Source: Catajapyx aquilonaris (taxonomy: Eukaryota). Taken from it: a stretch of DNA of 64,000 bases. A model generated the notes under the pieces. It was not told the origin of the DNA, did not search any database, and was given only the letters and a program-made list of their open reading frames with translations. The stretch covers positions 62,001 to 126,000 of the forward strand of contig KZ538551.1 of the NCBI GenBank assembly GCA_000934665.2. Reading direction: 5' to 3'. Positions 5,595-19,878 of this stretch are shown in pieces (position 1 is the stretch's first letter; each line of letters begins with the position of its first letter). Position numbers and translations under genes: made by a program.

Positions 5595-8500
5595 ATGGAT
5601 GACGACACTATACACGACATATTGCTGCGGAAGAACCTGCCTGGGTGGGTCAAGCAGATCGTCGTGGAGAGCGGCTTGCTGAAGAATCGGCAGGAGTTGT
5701 ACGGCGTGGGCGGGGAGTACGTGGTGAGGTGGGTCAGGGTCGCTCAAGAATGGATGGCGCGGAGGAAGGCGGCAATGGAGGGTTGCCTGGATTTCAGGCA
5801 GTTGGCAGAGGCCGCTTTTCAGGCGGAGGAGCTGCCACGCTACCTGCCCATAATCGCGGCTACGGTGCAGGAAGTGTTGGAGGAATGTCCGCCACCCCCG
5901 CATGAGGTATGACGAGGGTGCCATATGTTAATAAATTAAAGAAAATTAATAGCTATTTATATTTGCAGGCACCGCAAGGGGATGATGACGTCATTTGCAT
6001 CGAGTCGTCTTGGATTCCCCGGGATGTTGAAATGGATGACGTGAGCAATTTCTTTGCGGCTAAACTGAACGTGTCTGAAAATCAACAGCCAGTGATTGAT
6101 GTCAATTCTCAAGGAGCAAATGGGTAAGTGCGGTGCAGCATTCAGGTGCACTGTACCCCCGATTATCCGAGCCGCACTGTTGTCGCCAGATAATCGTAAG
6201 ACATGGATAATTGGAAGATAGCTTAAAAATGAGCTCACCACTGGTTTTAAATGAATGACTGTACATACTGTATTCTGCTTTAAATAAGATTTAATAAAAG
6301 TTATTTAAATGTCCATAGATTTTTAGTTTGTATTCTGGAAAAAGTCTGTTACATTAATTTTCTTTGTTTGCAACAATTTTTGGGGGGCTTCACTTTGTTG
6401 TAGCCGTGCACAGATAATGCGTATCACGAATAACCCACACCCGGATAATCGGGAGTACAGTGTATTTCGTAACAGTTGCTCTGACCTTATGGATGGTAGT
6501 TGAAATATACAGGGTGGGCGTAAAGTCCCAGGACACCTGGCCTTTTTTTCCCTGCAAAACAAATCTGTGCATGGAAAATGTGTCGGAAATGCTGGTGTAA
6601 CATCTTCTGGACACTGACGGAACTGTTTGATGAGGGGAGACATCTGAGGACCCCCAACAACACCTATAAAAAGCATTTAGCAAGGGAAGTGTCTTTCACG
6701 CTTTCCGTCTTTCACATTTCCCATGCTGAATGCTTTTTTCTCCCACTCGTTCAAGTTACTTCTTCTCGGTGGGACCTTACCAAAAGGAGCCCTGACGATA
6801 TCCTGCATGATGTGCGTTATGTTCTTTCCCACATGAGGCCTCCCGTGGACCCACACAGTAGCCACAAGTCTCTCCTCCACAGTGAACCCGCTCGTATCTG
6901 CCATCTTGCACTGTTAACAGTGTTAACTTACTGTGGGTGTTGTTGGGGGTCCCCAGATGTCTCCCCTCATCAAACAGTTCCGTCAGTGTCCAGAATATGT
7001 CACACCAGCATCCCCGACACATTTTCCATGCGCAGATTTGTTTTGAAGGCAAAAAAAGCCAGGTGTCCTGGGACTTTTCGCCCACCCTGTACATAAAGCA
7101 AAGTATTGAAGAGTATTGGAGAAGATGGTATATGCCGATTTCATGTGGCCTGACCAGTCACCAGAGGGTTCATTGTATCGGTCAAAGAGATGGCCAGATC
7201 CATGTGTCTGGTTATTGCTGGCCACCCCTTAATGGGATCTAGGCCGTGATGAATTGTATGTACGTTGCAAATATAATTTTGGAATAATTGAATGGCCACA
7301 ACAACAATTTTCTTTTTAGGGTGCATGCAAGTCATTGGAGGTATGGTAAGTGAACCAGATTGTCCCACAAGCAATTTCGTCAAGTTTAAAAATATTTTTT
7401 GTTCCGTTTTGTAATTGGACTGAGGACATGGGAACATCAGTCTGCATTCAAAAATTATTGACTAGGATGCAGATTTAAATTGTGAGAAATGGCACAACTC
7501 AATTTGACCCGTTAATAATAATTGTTCCCATTTGCATGCTGTTCATGTATACCAGTCACAGGCTCGAAGACTAATTTGGTGCTTTCAGATCTGGAATGTG
7601 CCAGCATGTGACACCATCTGGCACCTATGATGACCCTATTATTCTATCATCCGATGATGAGCTGGAAGTAACTTCTCCACAGCCATACGAGTTGGAAGTA
7701 ACCTTTCTACAGCCAGACATTATTCCCTCAGGGAGCGTACCAACTGTAACACTTCCGCAGCCAGAGGTTGTTCTCTCAGTGAGCAGACCAACTGTAACCC
7801 TTCCGCAGCAGCCAGAAAGTGTTCCCTTGGTGAACATACTAACCGTAGCCCCTTTGCAGCGAGTAAGTCGTCCCTCAGCAACCAAGAAAAGGAAAAGGGT
7901 GACAGTACGTTCTTTGGCTTTTTACTTGATGGAATTTTCTTGCACGACTACTTGAGTTGTGAGACGTACGATAGACTGCTAGTTGACAATGATGGCACAA
8001 CTGCTGCAGAGAAATATGTAGTATGTAACAGAAGGCTGATCCCATTTCTAATTTTAGAAACCAACGGCGGCTCCTGAGATTGTTGAGACTCCTGATATAT
8101 ACTCGTACATACATAAATTTGGAGGCAGGATGAGGCTTTCAGGAGAAGTGGTTCGGAGAGCAATAGCCGTATGTCAGAAAACTAAAGGAATAGTACTTTT
8201 CCCAAGGAAAAAGGACTACAACGCTATGGCAGGTGCTTGCATCTACGTTGCATCTCGCTTGGAAAAACAGCAACGAACAATGATGGTAAGTACAGGCTAA
8301 GGTGCATATTTTACACTTTTGCCGGTCATCATGACATTATTTACTTCCTGGCATGTATGCTAATACGTGTATCACGCTTCCTTCGTTTGAGCATATCACA
8401 CGCATGATAGAAAAACCGCACGAATTTTTATTCTTACAGGAAATAGTTTCTGCATGTCAGCTACAGGGCAGGGGAAGGATACATCTCTACTTCATGAGGA

Positions 8501-9084
8501 TGAAGAAGCGTGGCATCGATGTTGGGGAAGCCATCAAATCTGTGGATTTAATCCCACACTTTTGCACAGAGCTACATTTCGAGGATAATGTCTCAGGAGC
8601 AGCCGTGTACATTGCTACCCGGGTTGACCAGTCTGGTGAAGTTGCTAAAGGAAGAGGGCCTGTAAGCGTGGCTGTTGCAGCCATATACACAGTTTTCAAG
8701 GTACATTATATGTTAAATATCCATGTGCAATGTCTAAAAATATTCATATGTAACAGCTTTTATTGCAAGGTGATGTCATGAACATGTTCATGAAGAACTG
8801 GCATGTTTACACATACTGAAGTGATTTTGTATTGCCCTGGTTAGTTGTGATCTTGCTACACTTACCACATTTTCTCTCCTCTCTTGCAGTCATTGAAGAG
8901 GTGTGATGATGCTCAGAAGATTGTCGCACATGCAGGCACAAAGGATTCTGTCATTAGGCCAATTTGGAAAGATGTAGTGGCCAAGGAAGAGTTGCTCTTC
9001 CCAAATGGCTATCTTCAGAAGCTTGCAGAGAGCCACGGAGCAGCAAAGAACCCCCACTCCCACTCAGCACAACTGGCAGGTTGA
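5595..9084 (+). CDS. Divergent TFIIB paralogue lacking the zinc ribbon; exons 5595-5906, 5969-6123, 7589-7904 (alternative donor after 7862), 8058-8285, 8440-8700, 8890-9084; ~488 aa
   Basis: All junctions are GT-AG and frame-compatible (1467 nt, no internal stop). Exons 4-6 align to the TFIIB core: YNAMAGACIYVASRLEKQQRTMM vs [37 protein letters not shown] vs [23 protein letters not shown] vs AGVADVTIR. The last two introns lie at the same positions and phase as in the neighbouring TFIIB. The link to exons 1-3 is inferred from splice phase only. Confidence 0.8.
6149..6462. mobile_element. pogo/Tigger-like MITE
   Basis: 21-bp TIRs with one mismatch: CACTGTACCCCCGATTATCCG (6149-6169) and CGGATAATCGGGAGTACAGTG (6442-6462), followed by TA. 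Confidence 0.7.
6510..7089. mobile_element. Tc1/mariner-type MITE with ~155-bp TIRs
   Basis: TA|CAGGGTGGGCG...CGCCCACCCTG|TA; arms 6510-6664 and 6936-7089 are near-complementary; TA target-site duplication. Confidence 0.9.
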
Positions 9085-10687: not shown

Positions 10688-10732
10688 TGACGTCACGATT
10701 GGAAAAATCGGGGTTTGATAAAATGGCCGCCG
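10688..10732 (+). promoter_or_regulatory. TFIIB proximal promoter motifs
   Basis: CRE palindrome TGACGTCA (10688-10695), inverted CCAAT box ATTGG (10698-10702), and YY1-type AAAATGGCCGCC overlapping the start codon. Confidence 0.55.
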
Positions 10733-13331
10733 TCGGCAGGTAATTTCTGAATCGAACGCTTCGAAAAATCCGGATTTGGACCCGGTTCTGGCCTCGTTTG
10801 GGTCTGGAAATGGTCGGGGGTCGGGCACGGGCGGGTCTAGCCACCAGGGGCGGCCAGTGGGCTGCCCCGGGGGCCACGGGCGGGCTGGGAAATGGGGAGG
10901 GGGAGTTCCAAAAGTTGTGAAATATTAATTTTGTTCTATTATTTAATGCTGCATATGAATTTATGTTGCAGCCGTGACACCCCGAAGGTATGCTGCTATG
11001 CCCACCCGGATGCACCGCTGATTGAGGACTACAGGGCCGGAGACCAGATTTGTTCCGAGTGCGGACTTGTCGTTGGGGACAGGTGCGTACCGCAGTTACA
11101 GCCTTTTACGACATGTAACGCAACTGTACTTGTAGGGTAATAGATGTGGGGTCTGAATGGAGGACTTTCAACAATGAGAAGAACAACGCGGATCCATCTC
11201 GTGTTGGCGGGCCTGAAAACCCTCTTCTCAATGGATCTGATTTGTCCACCATGATTGGGCCCGGGAGAGGAAACGCTTCGTTCGATGACTTTGGGGTGTC
11301 CAAGTACCAGAACAGGAGATCGGTAAGTTCGTTTACAGCTTGAGCGTACGTATGTATTGCGCTGTTTCGTTGATTCCAGATGAACAGCTCGGATCGTGCG
11401 CTGGTTAATGCATTCCGAGAGATCAGCAGCATGTCTGACCGGATTAACTTGCCCAAGACAATAATCGACAGGGCCAGCAACTTGTTTAAGATGGTGCATG
11501 ACGGGCGGAACCTGAAGGGCCGCAGTAACGATGCCATCGCCACCGCATGCCTCTACATTGCCTGCAGACAGGAAGGGGTTCCACGCACTTTTAAGGTAAC
11601 GCCCTGAGTAAGAATCGCGATCGGTACTTGACGGCCTGATTATTTGCAGGAGATCTGTGCTGTGAGTAAGATCAGCAAGAAGGAGATTGGCCGCTGCTTC
11701 AAGCTGATCCTGAAGGCGCTTGACACAAGCGTGGACCTTATCACCACTGGGGACTTCATGTCTCGTTTCTGCTCCAATCTTGGCCTGCCTCCAATGGTCC
11801 AGAGGGCAGCCACGCACATTGCCAAAAAGGCAGTCGACCTCGACATTGTACCAGGGAGATCGCCCATATCAGTGGCCGCTGCCGCAATATACATGGCATC
11901 GCAGGTATGGACCACACAGTTACGCTGGGGGGGGGAATAGGATGCAATAATGAGTCAACCCACGTAAGAACAGTTTCGAACAGAGGATTCATGACAAATA
12001 AACAAAGTCATTGTCATTTCTGATGAATCCTTTATTCCAAACTTACTAGTGTGTTAGGTGGCAAAAGTTTCTGGCCTATGCTCCAGGGTTGATGGAAATT
12101 AAACCACGGTAGTGTCATAAATGGACAAGTTTGTGCTCGCAAATTGAGTCACACACTTGAATAAACAACTTCAGTCAGACATGCTGCACCATTTCACATA
12201 GTATTGAAAGTCAAGTACGGAAAGGAAGGAATTACATCCAGTGCTATCAAACAGGAACTGTGGCTTCGAAAAGAATGACCATCCACCATGAGGTGATACC
12301 TGGCCCTCAGTGGCTGTTACTTGTTTTCAAATCTCAAAAAATACCTTCCAGATATATAGAAAAAATGAAAATTAATATAGTGCAGAAAACTAAACGATGA
12401 CAAGACTTCGTCACGTGTACTCCTATTGTTGCATGAGAACAAAGCGATGGCAGCAGATCGTAATTTCGTTTTCCGAACTGTAGTTGCAGGAGGCATTTCC
12501 AGACAAAACTTGGAACGATTTTTCCAACGGTATTGTTTGTTTAATTATTCGGAGATGTAAGGAATGTGTTGTAGTATGAGATGACAATACTGAAAAATGA
12601 TACTGTTGTTTTATATCCGTCACACCTTGAACACAGTCAGCCGGAAACTTTTGGTTCCTACCTTGTATTTCAAATGCAATGTTAATGTGTCATAATAGTT
12701 GCAATTTAATTATATTCACATTGTAATCATACTGAACCCTCTATATCAAAAACCAGTTTTAAATATTATTCAAAAGAAATTATTAATGATAATCGTCATA
12801 AACTAGAATTAACGCAATCTTTCTAAACAAAATGGGCAGCACTGGTGTAGTGGTTAGCGCCACATACTTCCACCTCTGAGGTCCCAAGTTAGATCTCTGG
12901 ATCGGACAGAGGATACTTCTGTGGATAGAGTTCCGATGGGTTCTCTCCATGTTCGCATGGGTTTTCTCGGGACTCCCGTTTCCTTTCACTATCAAAATCC
13001 ATCACAGAGCAGGCAGTGATTAAAGTCGGTTCACGAAAAGATGATCCCCTAAGAGGCTCAAGGAGGCCTGTCACGGGGTATCCATTATTATGACTTTGTA
13101 AACATATGCCATTTTTGTCAGTTGACAATCGCATAACACTGTCCGATTTTAATACCAATGTAATTTCAGGCGTCGGAGGACAAGCGGACACAGAAGGAAA
13201 TCGGTGACATCGCAGGCGTGGCTGATGTCACGATCCGCCAGTCGTACAAGCTCATGTATCCAAAGGCTGCAGATCTGTTCCCGGAAGACTTCAAGTTCGC
13301 AACGCCACTGGAACAGTTGCCTCAAATGTAG
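10723..13331 (+). CDS. GTF2B: Transcription initiation factor IIB; exons 10723-10739, 10972-11082, 11136-11322, 11380-11595, 11650-11904, 13170-13331; 315 aa
   Basis: Zinc ribbon (CYAHPD...[22 protein letters not shown]), B-reader/linker (DPSRVG), both cyclin repeats and HTH ([17 protein letters not shown]). All introns are GT-AG; 948-nt continuous frame. Confidence 0.99.
12834..13000 (+). mobile_element. tRNA-derived SINE with a V-SINE-like core, in TFIIB intron 5
   Basis: A box TGGTGTAGTGG (12843-12853) and degenerate B box GTTAGATC, then TGTGGA...GTTCTCTCCATGTTCGCATGGGTTTTCTCGGGACTCCCGTTTCCT, resembling the V-SINE central domain. Confidence 0.7.
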
Positions 13332-13724
13332 TGTGTTTAAAAAGAGTGTGCACAAACACTTTTTTTTTCCATTTCTATGCATAATATTAATGGTGTAATA
13401 ATGGGAATTGCACTGTGTCAATTTTTACAGTATTTCTAAGGGTTTGGTCAAATTTATTAAGATCTGAAGAGAGTCTTTTGCTCTGTGGGCTTTTGGATGG
13501 ATTACGCAGTTTTTTATATATAAAAAATTGTTGGTTGACTGGAAGACAATTTTAGGGTTTAGTTACATGTGTTGACTAGTTGTACTTTCATTTCGGGCAC
13601 TGTATCACTTGTGGGGGGGGGCGCAACATAATAATAACTTGTTGTTAAAGTACATGTCCATTTGTTTCACACTCATTTTACCTGCATTCATATCCGTTTT
13701 TGATCCTTCAAAAATGTAAAAAGT

Positions 13725-13960
13725 CCGAATTTGGCGATCCGAATATTTATAGTCTTCCGAACGTGTGCAATTCACCGAATTTGGCGTCGACTTTGAGCAG
13801 CGAGATCGAATGAGATTGACTTTTCGTGAGTTTTTAAATTAATTTTTCTGACTACCCAATGTATTTCTAGATTGTAATTTGCTGTACTTGTTTGCAGTGG
13901 AGGGGCGGATTTGCTGGCAGACAAGGTGAAGAAACGTCAGGTCTTGCTGCCTGTTGGCGG
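13725..13960 (+). pseudogene. Degenerate copy A of URM1 exons 1-2
   Basis: TTGGCGTCGACTTTG (start ATG changed to TTG at 13781), TGACTTTTC|GTGAGT donor, same intron 1 end, and an exon 2 copy from 13898 reading GGADLLADKVKKRQVLLP. Confidence 0.9.
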
Positions 13961-14003
13961 CAGTTTGGTTGACTTGACTTGACCGAGTTTAACTGATGCT
14001 TTT

Positions 14004-14151
14004 GTATCAACAGTCCAAAAAGAATTGTCCCGTCGCGTCGAGCGGGCAGCCACGCGTCAGGATGAAAGGAATCTTGAAACTGGTTCCTTTCATCCTGACG
14101 CGTGGCTGCCCGCTCGACGCGATGGGACAATTCTTTTAGAACTGTTGATAC
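14004..14151. repeat. Near-perfect 68-bp inverted repeat with a 12-nt loop (MITE-like hairpin) near the duplication junction
   Basis: Arms 14004-14071 and 14084-14151 are complementary with only a few mismatches; TA-flanked TCAACAGT...ACTGTTGA ends. Confidence 0.9.
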
Positions 14152-14164
14152 CATTTACCCTCTT

Positions 14165-14402
14165 TCCAATCAGATGGACAGAGCAGAACATGGCCTATAG
14201 AACGTGCTCCTATAGAGAAGGAATTATGCAGTCTGTACATGATGGCTTGATTATTCGCAGGAGATCTGCGCCGTGAGTAGCCACCATGAGGGTGGCGCTG
14301 CGGACAGGCTGATCCTCAAGGTTCTCAACATAAGTTTCATGACTTATTTTTTGCTCCAATCTTGGCTCGCCTCCGATGGTCCAGCCAGGCACATTGCCAA
14401 AA
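14165..14402 (+). pseudogene. Decayed TFIIB fragment (exon 4 acceptor, intron 4 end, deleted exon 5)
   Basis: TGATTATTCGCAG|GAGATCTGCGCCGTGAGT...GCTGATCCTCAAGG...TGCTCCAATCTTGGC...CACATTGCCAAAA is collinear with 11637-11828 but carries frameshifting deletions. Confidence 0.85.
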
Positions 14403-14417
14403 ATGAAAAAAAGAAAA

Positions 14418-14665
14418 GCAAATTCAAATTTGGTGCCATAATTTCAGATTATTTGGCGACCTGTTCAATAGTTGTCATTTGGCTGAATTTCATGCAATTC
14501 GCTCCTCAAATTTGGAGACTTTTCGTGAGTGTTTCTTTCTTCAGTTTTTTCTAGTTACCAAGAGTGTATTTCTCGATTGTAATTAGCTGTACTTGTTTGC
14601 AGAGGAGGGGCCGAATTTCTGGTCGACAAGGTGAAGAAACATGTCAGGCCTCGCTGCCTGCAGAA
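14418..14665 (+). pseudogene. Degenerate copy B of the URM1 promoter and exons 1-2
   Basis: AATTCAAATTTGGTGCC...TAGTTGTCA matches 17664-17726. The ATG is lost; the GTGAGT donor and TTTGCAG acceptor are kept; the exon 2 copy from 14603 reads GGAEFLVDKVKKH. Confidence 0.9.
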
Positions 14666-14729
14666 GTCCGATTGGTTGATGTTGCCGAGAGTTGCTTTGT
14701 GACCATTTCCCCCTCTTTTTCCCATTCAG

Positions 14730-17336
14730 ATGAGCAGCTCGAATCCTCGCCTGGCTAATGCTTTACAAGCAATGACCAGCGTGGCCGATCATATCAACCT
14801 GCCCAAGGCAACAGTCGACAGGGCCGGACACTTGTTTAGGACCGTGCGATTCAAGCATCGCACCAAAGACGCAATCGCATTCGCATGCCTTTACCTTGCC
14901 TGCAGACAGGACCACGTCCCCTGCAGCCTTCATGTAAGGCTAATTATGCGTAAAAGTATACAACGGGGTCACATTTAATAATAAATAGCATTAAATATAG
15001 GTATTTATAACTAATAAATTATTGTTTGTCATGTGTAAATCACTCATGGAATTAGCTCCTGGAGAAGAGCTAGTGCAATTGATGGCCTGATTATCATTGC
15101 AGGAGATCTGCGCTGTGAGTAGGATCGACAGGAAGGAGATTGGCCGCTTCTACAAGCTGATCATGAAGGCTCTCAACATCAGCGTGGACCAGGTGAACAC
15201 TGGGGACTTCATCGCTCGATTCTGCTCCAATCTGGGCCTGCCTTTGATGGTCCAAAGGGCCGCCACACACATTGCCGAAAAGGCAGTTGAACTCGGCATT
15301 GATTTCCACTCGAGATGGCCCACAACAGTGGCCGCCGCTGCAATATACATGGCATCGCAGGTATGGATCACATGGTTGTGCTGGGAGGGTACAATTTAAT
15401 ACCAGTGTTAATTGCAGGCTGATGTATCTGTAAGCTTAATTGGGGATGTTGTACCAAGTAATGATGGTTGTGGGGATATTGTTAAGGAGAAAGGGGGCAA
15501 CACCAAAGTCTAACTGGTTGGGCTACGTACCGGCAAGGACGAACCGCAGGGGTTTACGAAGCCTGCGTGAATTACAAATGCATTAACTTACCAAAATCAA
15601 GATAGTTTCAGTGGTTGAAGGGTGCAGGAGGACTGATGACATGAAGATCGAATGGAATTTATTCATACGAACATGATAGAGTTATCGTATCTAAGACAAA
15701 TTCAATAATATTTGATGGTTGGCAACAACAGTCATAATCGAGTCACTCAATTGTTGACGCCTAAGGAGGATACCGTGGAAACTGAATGAAATATAATAAC
15801 AAGTTGAATGAATGAAATGGTTATTTAATAATAATGTAATGAAAATAAGGTAAAGCATATATTTATTTAAGCAGTTAGCGTACGTAATTCCGCATAAGGT
15901 GTAGAGATGATATTTACACAAAATAATATTCTAAATCATGTGTGACTATTGTCACACGTGGATTCCAGTTGCACGCATTGCTGCTCATAATGAATTATTC
16001 ACTTATAATTTTATTTCGGGGTTCTATTACGTCCTTGGGTTTTTTGTGTAGGGGATCGGGCACTGCAGCACGTCGGGCCGGATACGTGTTCAAAATATGA
16101 AGGCTGTACTTGCAACGGGTTTTGAGATATGCTTGACAGAAAAACTCGTCTCAACAAGAACAAGGAAAATTTTCATTGTTGTTTTTGCACGAGGATCTTA
16201 CTTATAGGGACTATCATCAAGTGGGCCTTTAAAATTATTAAATATTCCAATGGAGTCTCACACTCCAACGTGCGTGAAAATAACATGACATACATGATCA
16301 ATAGCTGTAAATAAGACCAGGATTCCGAAATATGGTTTTCCTGATGACCGCCATTTTTATGAATTAATTACGCGCTAATGAGAGCCTAAAAACTTGGGGT
16401 CTGGGGCGTTTTACGTTCAGGAAGGGATGTAGTATCAGCACCGTAAATGGCATCTTCTCCGCCAAAAGTGAAATATTCCGTCACTATTTCGGACGTTCCG
16501 ACCCCACTACAAGTAAGTTTTCTAGAAATAAGGACTTATCTTCTGCCTGTAGGTTGTCTGTCTATTCTCACGTTATGGTTCCTTCACTTATGTATGGTAG
16601 TGAAGCGTGGGTCTGGTCAGATATGCATAAGAGTAGGGTGTTGGCTACAGAGATGCGTTATCTCCGGGCTGTTTGTGGGGTTACCAAGTTGGATAGGATT
16701 AGGAATGAGGAGATTTTGGAGAGGTGAGGTTAAAGATAAGGTGTGTAGGTCTACTCTGAGGTGGTTTGGCCATGTGGAGAGGATGAAGGAGGAGGAGATT
16801 GTGAAGAAGGTTAATTTGGGTGGAGTAGTTGGTAAGAGGGGCAAGGGTAGGCCTAGGAAGACATGGTTGGACCAGGTGGGCCAGTGTCTTAAGGGTGTTG
16901 CTAGTGTTAAGCCGAGACGTTCATGTGTCAATAGGACCATGGACGTGGCTGAGGCTAGGGTTGTTTGTTTGGATAGGTGTAAATGGCGTAGGTTAACTAA
17001 TGGGTAAATATGTCTGAGGATAAGGTGATGTCTGAGGTGGGGGGTGGGACAGGTTGTTTTTAGGTTTATTCTCATAAGTTTTATTAGTTCATATGTTGGG
17101 TTAGCTTGCATCTCCCTTCATCGCTGACTACCCCTCATAGGGAAATGTCGTGATGTTGTTGTTGTTAATTGCAGGCGTCTGAAGACAAGCGGACACGGAA
17201 GGAAATCTGTTACGTCGTTGGCTTGTATGACGTCTCTATCTGCCCTTTGTACAAGCTCATGTATCAGAAGGCTGTAGATCTGTTCCCGGATGACTTCAAG
17301 TTTGCGACGCCTTTGGAACAGTTGCCTAAAGCATAG
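14730..17336 (+). CDS. Core-only TFIIB paralogue; exons 14730-14933, 15103-15360, 17175-17336; 207 aa (could be a young pseudogene)
   Basis: Copies of TFIIB exons 4-6 with intact splice sites, only in-frame length changes (-12, +3, 0 nt) and a stop at the homologous position. The ATG is the first codon of the exon 4 copy. Confidence 0.65.
15420..17162 (+). mobile_element. Truncated RTE-clade LINE insertion (probably with deleted or nested interior) with a 14-bp TSD
   Basis: RTE C-terminal motifs YGSEAW...[22 protein letters not shown], then after a frameshift [10 protein letters not shown]...[12 protein letters not shown] (about 16590-17007). (TGT)n tail; TGTTAATTGCAGGC repeated at 15406-15419 and 17163-17176. 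Confidence 0.85.
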
Positions 17337-17777
17337 TATTAAAGAGAGAGTGCACATTTATGTATCACAATTGCACAACAACAACAACAACAACTTTTTT
17401 TTCGTTTTTTCGTTTTAAATATGGCGTAACAATAAGTGGCCCTACGCCAAGAACTAATAACTACCGGTATTAGCTCTTGCCCACGCTTGTTACACCATAT
17501 TTGCTGGCAATCCCACCCCAAATATTATTTGGGGTGAGATTGCCAGTTCTTACAGTATTACCGAGTTTGGTCAATTATGCAGATAAATAATGACAATGTC
17601 AAAGTACACGTTCAGTATGGTTTCATTTCACCCCCATTCATACCCTAATTAAATTATCTAGCGAATTCAAATTTGGTGCCGAAATTTCAGAATAGCTTTA
17701 GTTGGTGACATGTTCAGTAGTTGTCAGTTGCCTGAATATGTGTACCATGTCATTCATCACGTGCTCTCAAATCCAAT

Positions 17778-19878
17778 ATGGCGTCGACTTTGGGCCTCGA
17801 AGTTGACTTTTCGTGAGTGTTTTCCTTCAATTTTTTCTCATTACCAAGTACATTTATGGACTGTAATTAGCTGTACTTGTTTGCAGCGGAGGGGCCGAAC
17901 TGCTGTTCGATAAAGTGAAGAAACACCAGGTCTCGCTGCCCCTAGACGACCAAAAACAATGTGAGTCATGCCCCTGACAAATGGTCATGAACGTTTCCTT
18001 TTGCTGCTGAAAATATTAATTAAAATATCGGATTATATTTAATTGCGTTAAGTTAACTATTGCATTACATTTCATTGAATTAATTGCGTGAAATTAGATT
18101 ACTTACTATGTTAAATTTAATTTCATTGAATTAATTATATGAAATTACACTACTTACAATGTTAAATTAATTCCAATACGGTTATTCCAATATTAAATTA
18201 AACCATATCAAATTACATGCCACATTACATTATTTACAATGCTACATTAAATTCAATTACATAATTAAAATATTACATGAAATTCCATTGCATTTATTAC
18301 AATATTGAAATAAATGTTAAAATAAACAACATTAAATTACATGTTACATGACATTACAAGACAAATTAAATTATTGCATAAAATTAATTACATTTATTAA
18401 AATAATAAATTAAGCACAGTTGTAAAGGAAATAATGCGGTCCTGCCTTGTATGTCATGATAACTCGAGATTAAGTTTGCCATACTTTTCAGCTCTAAAAT
18501 CTGTGTTAGCTAGCTATTAGCGCAAAAATGGGATCCTCTGACTGCCACAACTTTCCAGCGAGCTGTTAGTAATGCCATCACTCCGCCTAATCACGTTTGA
18601 TGTCACCGGAACCATCCTACGCTTTCGGAAGAATCCGGCTGACCAGTATGCGGAGACGGCTGCCGCATTTGGCCTCGTTGCCGATCGCAGTCTAATGTTA
18701 TCCAGCTTCAAGTCAAGCTTCAAGAGAATTAATGAGCAGCACCCTTGCTATGGGGCGTTGACCAGCTTGGCTTGGGAGGACTGGTGGCGCAAAGTGGTCC
18801 TGGGCACGTTTCATGGTGCAGGGGTCGAAGGTCAGGCGTTGGGCGAGGTGGCCCAACGTTTGATCAAGTTTTATCACACCTCAGATGCTTGGGAGGTGTG
18901 CCCCGGGGCTCGTGAGATACTAGAAAAGTCACGGAAACATCGGCTTGAGGTTGGGGCGTTGTCCAACTTTGACCCGAGTTTGGACCCGCTTTTGGGCACT
19001 ATGGGAATCAGACAGTTGTTTGATTTTGTAGTCACGTCGCATGAAACTAAGTGCGCCAAACCAGGCTCAGCCATTTTTATAGCCGCATTAAACAAGTCGA
19101 AGTTTAATCTCAAGCCATCAGAGGCTGTTCATGTTGGCGACAACTACGAACTGGACTTTTTAGGTGCCAAAAAGGCAGGGTGGCAAGCACTGCTGGTTAG
19201 TCAGAACGTACCTGATGGAATTTCTAGTGAGCACCAGAAGTTTGTCTTTCCCTCACTGCAAGAGCTGTCCGCACACTTGTTCAGGTTGGGGATCCCATTT
19301 TTGCGATACACAGGTCGAAAGCTAGAATTTTACAGTTGTATTTGCTTGTTTCAGGGACAATTCAGCACTTACTGGTGTGGATTAAGGACAATCTGTTGCG
19401 GCAGAGGCCGGAATTGTTCATCAAAGGTGATTCGGTGTAAGTGTTAGCTGCGGAATCTTCTAAAAACATGCGATTAATACTAGGAAAACTTGTATCTTTT
19501 TTTCCCTGAAAATCTGGTCAACTCTTGGGTATTGTTGTTGCCAAGGTTTTTTTATTGAATCAGATTCCAATGTACACAAATGGGTTGGAAATATATTAAT
19601 TTACATACAGGGTTTTTATCGCTGTGTGTTGTATTCACACATTATGAAGTTCAACTTGTGCACAATGTTGTTGTTAATAAAATGTCTGCTATTGTTGCGT
19701 AGGAGGCCTGGAATACTTGTGCTGGTGAATGATTGCGACTGGGAATTGATGGTGAGTAGTTACCTGTGCATTGAAGGGATTTGCAATTAACAGATTTAAA
19801 TCGTTTCAGGGCAATTTGGATTACGAGCTCAAAGAAGGTGACAAGATATCGTTTATATCGACTCTACACGGAGGATGA
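17778..19878 (+). CDS. URM1: Ubiquitin-related modifier 1; exons 17778-17812, 17887-17960, 19355-19436, 19703-19751, 19810-19878; 102 aa
   Basis: Spliced product [102 protein letters not shown], with the URM1 signatures GGAELLF, RPGILVL.ND.DWEL and ISTLHGG. Missed by the ORF track because the exons are short. Confidence 0.98.
18521..19305 (+). promoter_or_regulatory. 16-bp perfect inverted repeat pair bracketing the HDHD3 exon (candidate long-range pre-mRNA stem)
   Basis: CGCAAAAATGGGATCC (18521-18536) and GGATCCCATTTTTGCG (19290-19305). Confidence 0.65.
18572..19385 (+). CDS. HDHD3: HAD-like hydrolase (HDHD3/Reg-2 type) nested in URM1 intron 2; likely exon 18559-19284 spliced to 19355 (stop 19383-19385); the unspliced ORF runs to 19447
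   Basis: HAD motifs LITFDVTGT (I), LSNFD (II), KPGSAIF (III), [18 protein letters not shown] (IV). CAG|GTTGGG donor at 19284/19285, where recognisable similarity ends. Confidence 0.9.

What the first reader, a model, noticed from the sequence alone, without database searches (positions are those of the whole stretch)
14418..17336. Core-only TFIIB that appears to have captured a duplicated URM1 promoter and 5' exons
Copies of TFIIB exons 4-6 form an uninterrupted 207-aa ORF directly downstream of a URM1 promoter/exon 1/exon 2 copy that lost its ATG but kept its splice sites, giving a ready-made promoter and 5' UTR. Changes hit DNA-contact motifs: KGRSND to KHRTKD, PGRSP to HSRWP, and the BRE-recognition helix [10 protein letters not shown] to [10 protein letters not shown]. 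Structural stretches such as [23 protein letters not shown] are kept. The sister copy at 14165-14402 has decayed completely, which serves as an internal neutral control.
Basis: partly seen in the sequence, partly recalled or inferred. Interest (0 to 1): 0.7.

Follow-up and report, generated by a model that had tools for sequence, protein, structure and literature searches.

The report
Core-only TFIIB duplicate behind URM1 fragment
An animal genome carries, next to its normal TFIIB gene, a partial tandem copy that still encodes only the DNA/TBP-binding half of this basic transcription factor and looks kept by selection, although nobody has yet seen its RNA.

Summary
Three exons (14730-14933, 15103-15360, 17175-17336) copy TFIIB exons 4-6. 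They keep every GT/AG and read as one 207-aa frame that starts at the equivalent of human TFIIB residue 107. It is the third unit of a tandem triplication of [TFIIB exons 4-6 + intergenic + URM1 5' end]. The breakpoint lies inside URM1 exon 2, so that exon's donor was not copied.

The substitution signal is mixed:
- Pairwise dN/dS to the parent is 0.40-0.48, which means roughly 0.75-0.9 on the copy branch.
- 37 of 115 universally invariant residues are changed, including R286C and Q287P in the BRE helix.

Neutral decay nevertheless fits poorly:
- There are only 2 indels, both in frame, against 6.6-19 expected.
- There are no stop codons (P about 0.06-0.08).
- Changes are clustered and conservative.
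- 12 of 13 changed invariant hydrophobic residues stay hydrophobic (p = 0.002).

I read it as a selectively maintained, fast-evolving core-only TFIIB paralogue (confidence about 0.55). Use of the URM1-derived promoter is plausible but unshown.

An older core-only TFIIB derivative with a new first exon lies at 7596-9084, so this architecture can persist in this lineage.

No RNA evidence and no orthologue were found.

The parts
14417..14524 (+). U2: copy of the URM1 upstream region and an exon-1 remnant; the URM1 ATG has been lost by deletion
   Evidence: It aligns to 17660-17812. The first 74 aligned nt are 86% identical (64 of 74).
14525..14602 (+). U2: copy of URM1 intron 1, with donor GTGAGT and acceptor TTTGCAG kept
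   Evidence: Three-way alignment of the URM1 5' copies; pattern positions.
14603..14658 (+). U2: first part of URM1 exon 2. Homology ends here, which marks the duplication breakpoint. It holds a donor-like AAG|GTGAAG at 14631/14632 and an upstream ATG at 14641.
   Evidence: sequence read.
14659..14729 (+). Junction and intron-3-derived acceptor region: long pyrimidine tract plus CAG, with an in-frame TGA at 14700-14702
   Evidence: Sequence. The sister fragment shares this tract.
14730..14933 (+). Copy exon A' (homologue of TFIIB exon 4), 68 codons. It starts with ATG at the position of human TFIIB residue 107.
   Evidence: Pfam PF00382 35.1 bits. PDB alignment.
15103..15360 (+). Copy exon B' (homologue of exon 5), 86 codons, with one 3-nt insertion
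   Evidence: Pfam PF00382 54.0 bits.
16400..17110 (+). Repeat or retroelement-like insert inside the copy's last intron
   Evidence: ORF 16447-17007. It is covered by diverged RNA contigs that come from other copies. No Pfam hit.
17175..17336 (+). Copy exon C' (homologue of exon 6), 53 codons plus TAG. It contains the altered BRE helix. ATTAAA follows at 17338-17343.
   Evidence: PDB alignment to human residues 264-315.
14165..14403 (+). Decayed sister fragment (middle unit): the start of exon 4 and part of exon 5, with frameshifting indels and large deletions
13740..13972 (+). U1: the first URM1 5' copy, behind the parent TFIIB. It has lost most of the upstream block and shares the junction sequence with U2.
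14004..14151 (.). Inverted repeat (68-nt arms, 96% complementary) between U1 and the sister fragment
10720..13624 (+). Parent TFIIB gene, 6 exons, full length with zinc ribbon
   Evidence: A spliced 1244-nt RNA contig with 0 mismatches. tblastn and hmmsearch hits.
17778..19437 (+). Real URM1: exon 1 at 17778-17812, exon 2 at 17887-17960, exon 3 from 19355
   Evidence: RNA joint 17960 to 19355; translation.
7596..9084 (+). TL2: an older core-only TFIIB derivative. Predicted exons are 7596-7862 (a new N-terminal exon), 8058-8285, 8440-8700 and 8890-9084, in all 316 aa.
   Evidence: Pfam PF00382 scores 33.5 and 31.2 bits against a cut-off of 23.6.

Best explanation
Origin. The stretch is the third unit of a tandem triplication. 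The first event was a tandem duplication with one breakpoint in TFIIB intron 3 and the other inside URM1 exon 2. It placed a copy of the URM1 5' end directly in front of a copy of TFIIB exons 4-6. Unequal crossing-over then made a second such unit. One unit decayed (U1 plus the sister fragment). The other survived (U2 plus the copy).

What the survivor is. It is a protein-coding gene, or was one for most of its history. It encodes a 207-aa TFIIB core: the two cyclin-like repeats without the zinc ribbon, B-reader or B-linker.

How selection acted. Selection has kept the frame, the splice sites and the hydrophobic core. Many ancestral surface residues have been replaced, including the BRE-reading arginine.

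Likely action. This part is inferred, not shown. The product cannot dock RNA polymerase II, so it cannot act as a general initiation factor. It more likely acts through what remains of its TBP or partner-binding surface, as a competitor or modulator of pre-initiation complex assembly, or it has taken up a new partner.

Likely expression. Transcription most likely starts in the URM1-derived 5' region. This too is inferred only.
For: Structure:
- The frame and all GT/AG sites are intact.
- U1 and U2 share the same junction sequence.
- Sister and copy share derived states such as T to I, which supports the topology (parent,(sister,copy)).

Selection on the frame:
- The copy exons carry 2 indels, of 12 and 3 nt, both in frame, against 134 mismatches. 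Eight unrelated repeat alignments in the same window give 58 gap openings per 332 mismatches, a ratio of 0.175.
- The expected number of indels is 6.6-19, which gives P(no frameshift) between 1e-2 and 1e-6.
- The neighbouring sister fragment and U2 are full of indels.
- P(no stop) under neutral simulation is 0.04-0.12 over 90-150 substitutions, and 0.056-0.082 at the most likely 110-130.
- P(13 splice and ATG bases unchanged) is about 0.07.

Selection on the protein:
- Changes are more conservative than random mutation. Mean BLOSUM62 is -0.01 against -0.5 in simulation, with 0.1-1.5% of simulations reaching the observed value depending on the substitution number. For the 60 changes placed on the copy branch it is -0.08, p = 0.016.
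- Changes are clustered. The longest unchanged run is 18 aa (p = 0.02), the top four runs give p = 0.0026, and dispersion gives p = 0.009.
- Of 59 outgroup-invariant hydrophobic residues, 13 changed, against 19.4 in simulation (p = 0.03). Twelve of those 13 remain hydrophobic, against 50% in simulation (p = 0.0018).

Family signal and precedent:
- PF00382 is still matched above its cut-off by exons A' and B'.
- The sister accumulated more lineage-specific changes than the copy: 38 against 15, p = 0.002, over all 204 ungapped columns.
- Precedent in the same window: TL2 is a much older core-only TFIIB derivative with the same exon boundaries and an open 316-codon frame.
Against: - Pairwise dN/dS is 0.40-0.48 by four methods.
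- 60 of the 72 amino-acid differences fall on the copy branch. The copy-branch ratio is therefore about 0.75-0.9, which is close to neutral.
- Universally invariant residues changed as often as variable ones: 37 of 115 against 35 of 91, Fisher p = 0.38.
- Pfam scores have fallen from 79.7, 79.9 and 25.0 bits in the parent to 35.1, 54.0 and no hit in the copy.
- R286C and Q287P (human numbering) sit in the BRE helix.
- The sister-versus-copy rate difference loses significance in the 79 cleanest columns (11 against 6, p = 0.33).
- The URM1-derived leader carries two upstream ATGs, and the main ATG has a weak context (sequence).
- No protein more than 74% identical to exon B' was found among 5.8 billion proteins, in either length class. 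No orthologue and no gene model of it were therefore found.
- The low divergence of U2 is shared by the apparently dead U1. It may reflect gene conversion and not promoter constraint.
Confidence: 0.55

Rival explanations
1. It is an unprocessed partial pseudogene. A dead by-product of segmental duplication has drifted neutrally, and its frame is open only by chance.
For: - The copy-branch dN/dS is near 1.
- Invariant sites are hit as often as variable ones.
- Pfam scores are eroded and the third exon no longer matches.
- Key BRE-helix residues are lost.
- The copy lacks its own first three exons.
- No orthologue was found.
- Absence of stops alone is not very improbable (0.06-0.08).
Against: - The joint improbability of no frameshift (1e-2 to 1e-6), no stop (about 0.07) and 13 intact signal bases (about 0.07) is high.
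- Hydrophobic residues are retained (p = 0.0018) and changes are biased towards conservative ones.
- Changes are clustered.
- The sister unit of the same or younger age has collapsed.
Confidence: 0.3
2. The three exons are an alternative 3' cassette of the parent TFIIB gene. Parent exon 3 ends in phase 0 and would splice to A', which begins in phase 0. The result would be a full-length TFIIB isoform with a divergent core.
For: - The exons lie on the same strand, 3.4 kb downstream of the parent.
- The phases are compatible (sequence).
- A' has a strong pyrimidine tract and a CAG acceptor but no obvious exon of its own upstream with a matching frame.
- This reading would explain selection on the frame.
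Against:
- The one RNA contig available shows only the canonical exon 5 to exon 6 joins.
Confidence: 0.1
3. Repeated gene conversion from the parent, and not selection, keeps the frame open.
For: - dS differs among exons (0.65, 0.32, 0.42).
- The URM1-derived parts of all three units are less diverged than the TFIIB-derived sister, which suggests some concerted evolution in the array.
Against: - The longest identical nucleotide run between parent and copy is 26 nt, which is not unusual (p = 0.19).
- Overall nucleotide identity is only 78%.
- Conversion would erase substitutions together with indels, so it does not explain the low indel-to-substitution ratio.
Confidence: 0.05

Closest known systems
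TFIIB core domain (TFIIBc, human residues 107-316), as used in structural work (PDB 1VOL, 1C9B, 5WH1)
   Same: The copy begins exactly at the methionine that aligns with human residue 107 and runs to the C-terminus. It therefore has the same extent as the laboratory core construct. Zhang et al. 2016 (PMC5066616, passages read) state that residues 107-316 carry TBP and promoter binding, that the N-terminus contacts Pol II, and that N-terminal deletion makes TFIIB binding more transient.
   Different: This is a natural gene copy. It differs from its parent core at 72 of 206 residues, including G153H, R286C and Q287P. Binding to TBP or DNA is untested.
Plant TFIIB-like expansion (Arabidopsis BRP and BRF genes)
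   Same: These are lineage-specific multiplications of TFIIB-family genes that include truncated forms. [quoted passage not shown]
   Different: Those are plant genes of separate origin. The form described here is from an animal, keeps both cyclin repeats, and sits in tandem with its parent.
Specialised or truncated TFB/TFIIB paralogues in other lineages (Tetrahymena Emit3; Sulfolobus TFB3; archaeal core-only TFB pairs)
   Same: These are extra copies of the factor with restricted roles. For Emit3 I saw the abstract of PMC12082453. For TFB3 I saw only the search listing and abstract start of PMC6101594. Core-only archaeal TFB paralogues were reported in the earlier finding e1-1237477.
   Different: Emit3 needs its zinc ribbon (section heading seen). 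From recall, TFB3 keeps the N-terminus and lacks the core, which is the opposite truncation. None of them derives from a tandem partial duplication fused to a neighbouring gene's 5' end.
Chimeric new genes made by partial tandem duplication (recalled as a general class from Drosophila and other genomes; no paper read here)
   Same: The duplication breakpoints lie in two neighbouring genes. This puts the 5' end of one gene in front of the 3' exons of the other on the same strand.
   Different: No chimeric transcript is shown here. The URM1 part contributes no coding sequence because its ATG is lost.

Membership tests
TFIIB family (general transcription factor IIB) | Two TFIIB/cyclin-like repeats (Pfam PF00382) | tested here: met
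   Exon A' scores 35.1 bits and exon B' 54.0 bits against a cut-off of 23.6. Exon C' has no hit, whereas the parent exon scores 25.0. PDB matches to human TFIIB have E-values of 6e-15 and 5e-14.
TFIIB family (general transcription factor IIB) | N-terminal zinc ribbon, B-reader and B-linker, which contact RNA polymerase II | tested here: not met
   tblastn with a full-length TFIIB and an hmmsearch of all six frames find N-terminal exons only at 10841-11340, in the parent. Nothing lies between 13332 and 14729.
TFIIB family (general transcription factor IIB) | BRE-recognition helix residues (V283 and R286 in human numbering; their role is recalled from Lagrange et al. 1998, which I did not read here) | tested here: not met
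   The alignment to human TFIIB shows V283 kept, R286 changed to C and Q287 changed to P.
TFIIB family (general transcription factor IIB) | Binding to the TBP-DNA complex | not testable with these tools
   The spliced protein could not be submitted for folding or complex prediction, and no TBP sequence of this organism was at hand.
Unprocessed (duplicated) pseudogene | Disabling lesions: stop codons, frameshifts or lost splice sites | tested here: not met
   There are none in the 624 nt or the five splice dinucleotides.
Unprocessed (duplicated) pseudogene | Neutral pattern of substitution | tested here: inconclusive
   dN/dS and the count at invariant sites look neutral. The indel deficit, the clustering, the conservative bias and the hydrophobic retention do not.
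Chimeric gene by partial tandem duplication (promoter capture) | The 5' end of the neighbouring gene is joined upstream, on the same strand, at a duplication junction | tested here: met
   U2 at 14417-14658 is homologous to URM1 at 17660-17940. The junction sequence is shared with U1.
Chimeric gene by partial tandem duplication (promoter capture) | A transcript that starts in the captured 5' end and is spliced to the recipient exons | not testable with these tools
   Only one run was available, and it is kept as contigs. It gave no contig on the copy, which cannot be read as absence.

The most novel reading that the evidence does not exclude
This TFIIB locus repeatedly spawns zinc-ribbon-less TFIIB-core proteins that are kept by selection. 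The ancient one (TL2, 7596-9084) gained a new acidic, SIM-like N-terminal exon. The younger one (14730-17336) is driven by a captured URM1 promoter. Together they would form an undescribed animal class of Pol II-blind TFIIB cores. Such proteins would occupy or remodel TBP-promoter complexes as gene-selective regulators, with their DNA-reading surface retuned (R286C, and Q287P shared by both).
Probability: 0.2. Interest if true: 0.75.

Novelty: new variant of a known kind. Interest (0 to 1): 0.5.

Why it matters
As far as I recall, TFIIB is normally a single-copy, nearly invariant gene in animals. Known animal paralogues of general transcription factors concern TBP, TAFs and TFIIA, not TFIIB.

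A natural protein that equals the laboratory TFIIB core construct would be a ready-made tool and a test case. It would show whether cells use Pol II-blind TFIIB cores to tune promoter occupancy.

The locus is also a clean, datable example of gene birth. A partial tandem duplication fused two neighbouring genes, and an internal dead twin serves as a neutral yardstick.

If the copy proves silent, it is an ordinary old partial duplicate. The lesson would then be methodological: an open frame together with a branch dN/dS near 1.

Tried and rejected
- RNA evidence. The look-up of sequencing runs (kind rna) listed one run, X1, with its kind not on record and no RNA holder listed. Laid on 10900-19500, its contigs show spliced parent TFIIB and the URM1 exon 2-3 joint. 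No listed contig lies on 14344-15204 or 17214-17500.
- Whole genome. None is held for this window.
- Protein searches with exon B'. The longer class gave 659 hits and the near class 137, with 120 listed in each. None exceeded 74% identity.
- TL2 exon 3. The word-seeded search found nothing. The full HMMER scan of 1.84 billion representatives gave one hit, a canonical TFIIB.
- Earlier findings of this scan. Nothing came up near, in this genome, in relatives or by sequence. One analogue from another genome came up by words.
- Recent gene conversion. Rejected, because the longest identical run gives p = 0.19.
- U2 promoter constraint. U2-specific changes are fewer than the sister's: 7 of 150 against 11 of 79 to 38 of 204, p = 0.019 to 8e-5. 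I do not count this as support, because the apparently dead U1 is also little diverged.
- Initiator-like motif in U2 and U3. I considered one, but dropped it because upstream ATGs in the real URM1 leader make that start site unlikely.
- Other checks. No tRNA was found in the repeat inside parent intron 5. The insert at 16447-17007 has no Pfam hit. A paper search for 'TFIIB core domain' plus 'dominant negative' found 0 papers.
- Structure and complex prediction. Not attempted, because the spliced protein is not a contiguous translation of the window.
Full report
**What is there**

The window is animal DNA with short GT-AG introns. The TFIIB it encodes is most like arthropod TFIIBs.

The canonical TFIIB gene has six exons on the + strand. 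One public run holds a 1244-nt contig that matches with 0 mismatches and joins 10968-11080, 11134-11321, 11379-11593, 11648-11901 and 13167-13624. Sixteen further letters of the contig match 10720-10735, around the start codon. With the cuts moved to GT..AG, exons 4-6 are 11380-11595, 11650-11904 and 13170-13331.

The real URM1 starts at 17778. Its exon 1 runs to 17812 and its exon 2 covers 17887-17960. A joint from 17960 to 19355 is seen in RNA.

**The finding itself**

Exons 14730-14933, 15103-15360 and 17175-17336 are copies of TFIIB exons 4-6. All five splice dinucleotides are canonical. The first exon opens with ATG directly after a long pyrimidine tract and CAG. The joined 624 nt read as 207 codons plus TAG.

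Copy and parent core are 78% identical in nucleotides and identical at 134 of 206 residues. They differ by one 12-nt deletion and one 3-nt insertion.

The copy begins at the methionine that aligns with human TFIIB residue 107 and ends at the C-terminus. That is the extent of the classical core domain, which carries TBP and promoter binding. The missing N-terminus contacts Pol II (PMC5066616, passages).

No zinc-ribbon, reader or linker sequence lies between the parent's stop and the copy. In human numbering they include G153H, R286C and Q287P, with K152, R154 and V283 kept.

**How it arose**

Three copies of the URM1 5' end exist:
- U1 at about 13740-13972, behind the parent gene.
- U2 at 14417-14658, in front of the copy.
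- The real URM1 5' end.

Homology to URM1 ends inside exon 2. From that point on, U1 and U2 share a junction sequence that the real gene lacks.

Between U1 and U2 lies the sister fragment (14165-14403). It holds the same acceptor tract, the first bases of exon 4, and part of exon 5.

The array is therefore three units of [TFIIB exons 4-6, intergenic, URM1 5' end]. The first duplication had breakpoints in TFIIB intron 3 and URM1 exon 2. The shared junction shows that the third unit came from unequal crossing-over.

Sister and copy share derived states that the parent and the outgroups lack, for example T to I at the residue aligned to parent position 98. The order of branching is therefore (parent,(sister,copy)).

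This corrects one detail of the finding. U2 keeps the intron-1 donor and acceptor, but the exon-2 donor was never part of the copy.

**Is the copy alive? Evidence for neutrality**

- Pairwise dN/dS is 0.48 (NG86), 0.48 (LWL85), 0.40 (YN00) and 0.42 (ML), with dS between 0.42 and 0.50.
- I compared against 23 outgroup TFIIBs from arthropods, molluscs, an annelid and vertebrates. I had fetched 24 and left out P0116, whose C-terminus is aberrant. In 60 of the 72 differences the parent holds the outgroup consensus. In 4 the copy does, and 8 are ambiguous.
- Nearly all replacement change is therefore on the copy branch. Its dN/dS is then roughly 0.75-0.9, which is an inference.
- The copy changed 37 of 115 residues that are invariant in all outgroups, against 35 of 91 variable ones (Fisher p = 0.38). 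The parent differs at 3 of the invariant sites.
- Pfam scores fell by about half, and exon C' no longer matches.

**Is the copy alive? Evidence against neutrality**

- *Indels.* Eight unrelated repeat alignments elsewhere in the window have 58 gap openings per 332 mismatches, a ratio of 0.175. The sister fragment and U2 show similar densities. The copy has about 110 substitutions on its own branch, so 6.6 to 19 indels are expected. Two are seen, and both are multiples of three. The chance of no frameshift is 1e-2 to 1e-6.
- *Stops.* Simulations from the parent sequence leave the frame open in 4-12% of runs (90-150 substitutions), and in 5.6-8.2% at 110-130 substitutions.
- *Signals.* Thirteen splice and start bases unchanged has a chance of about 0.07.
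- *Kind of change.* The observed replacements are more conservative than simulated ones. Between 0.1% and 1.5% of simulations reach the observed mean BLOSUM62, depending on the substitution number. For the 60 polarised changes p = 0.016.
- *Place of change.* Replacements are clustered. The longest unchanged run is 18 residues (p = 0.02), the sum of the four longest runs gives p = 0.0026, and dispersion gives p = 0.009. From my reading of the printed exon sequences, the 18-residue run appears to contain four synonymous differences, so it does not look like a recent conversion tract.
- *Fold.* Of 59 invariant hydrophobic residues, 13 changed, against 19.4 in simulation (p = 0.03). Twelve of those 13 became another hydrophobic residue, against 50% in simulation (p = 0.0018). 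Of 53 invariant non-hydrophobic residues, 21 changed.
- *Sister control.* Over 204 ungapped columns the sister has 38 lineage-specific changes and the copy 15 (p = 0.002). In the 79 cleanest columns the counts are 11 and 6 (p = 0.33), so this test is only suggestive.

Taken together, the frame and the fold have been protected while the ancestral polar surface has been released or remodelled. That fits a fast-evolving functional paralogue better than a relic. It cannot exclude a gene that died recently.

**The 5' end**

U2 retains 64 of 74 bases of the block upstream of URM1. U1 lost most of that block. The unit with the retained block is the one with the live frame, but this is a sample of two.

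U2's own lineage shows few substitutions (7 of 150). However, U1 is also little diverged, so conversion among the URM1-derived parts is an equal explanation.

The possible leader has ATGs at 14492 and 14641. A donor-like AAG|GTGAAG at 14631/14632 would remove the second of these. An in-frame TGA at 14700 means the protein must start at 14730 unless parent exon 3 is spliced in (sequence). That last option gives the alternative-cassette rival, which the phases allow.

**An unexpected neighbour**

Upstream of TFIIB, on the same strand, lies a further TFIIB-derived gene that I call TL2. Its predicted exons are 7596-7862, 8058-8285, 8440-8700 and 8890-9084. All sites are GT/AG, all exons are in phase 0, and the product is 316 aa.

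Its last three exons have the same boundaries as TFIIB exons 4-6. Two of them match PF00382 above the cut-off, at 33.5 and 31.2 bits. Its core is only 29% identical to the parent core, and an open frame at that distance cannot be chance.

Its first exon is new, proline-rich and acidic, and has no Pfam match. No relative other than canonical TFIIB was found.

TL2 shows that a core-only TFIIB derivative can be maintained for a long time in this lineage. Like the copy, it has proline at the position of human Q287. Its 5' exon model is a prediction, and its expression was not examined.

**Comparison with what is known**

The product would equal the laboratory TFIIB core. Truncated TFIIB-like genes are described in plants (PMC7865254, passages). 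Specialised TFIIB paralogues are described in ciliates (PMC12082453, abstract) and in archaea (PMC6101594, listing only; earlier finding e1-1237477).

My paper searches turned up no animal TFIIB paralogue lacking the N-terminus. This is not proof of absence, because much of the older TFIIB literature is outside the searchable library.

**Verdict**

- The origin by partial tandem duplication is well supported (about 0.9).
- Maintenance of the frame by selection is likely (about 0.7).
- A currently expressed core-only TFIIB paralogue is my best single reading (0.55).
- Use of the URM1-derived promoter is plausible (about 0.35).
- The biochemical role is open.

Noticed in passing
window 7596-9084 (+): TL2 is a predicted 4-exon, 316-aa gene. 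Its last three exons are a highly diverged copy of TFIIB exons 4-6 (29% identity, PF00382 on two exons). Its first exon is a new acidic, proline-rich sequence containing DDPIILSSDDE. No relatives other than canonical TFIIB were found.
   Followed up: partly
window 14004-14151: A near-perfect inverted repeat (68-nt arms, 96% complementary, 12-nt spacer) lies between the first URM1 5' copy and the decayed TFIIB fragment. No other copy is in the window. It may be a foldback insertion or a repair scar that helped kill that unit.
   Followed up: partly
window 18542-19354 (+): A single-exon HAD-like hydrolase frame (PF00702, 77.5 bits) lies inside URM1 intron 2 on the same strand. An RNA contig covers it at 18718-19178.
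   Followed up: partly
window 12836-13090 (parent TFIIB intron 5): An interspersed repeat has very high summed RNA-contig depth (up to about 830) and many loose ends. ARAGORN finds no tRNA in it.
   Followed up: partly
window 13895-13921, 14575-14602, 17860-17886: The last 28 or so bases of URM1 intron 1 are almost identical in all three URM1 5' copies, including the apparently dead ones. They are far more conserved than the surrounding sequence. Gene conversion or a conserved intronic element could explain this.
   Followed up: no
window 10739: The RNA contig of the parent TFIIB appears to read G where the assembly has A at the last base of exon 1, if the intron is placed as GT..AG at 10740-10971. 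This may be a polymorphism changing Asn to Ser.
   Followed up: no
window 16400-17110 (+): A repeat with a 186-codon open frame (with a RWFGHVERM...[11 protein letters not shown] tail) is inserted in the copy's last intron. Diverged RNA contigs from other copies map on it, and it has no Pfam hit.
   Followed up: partly
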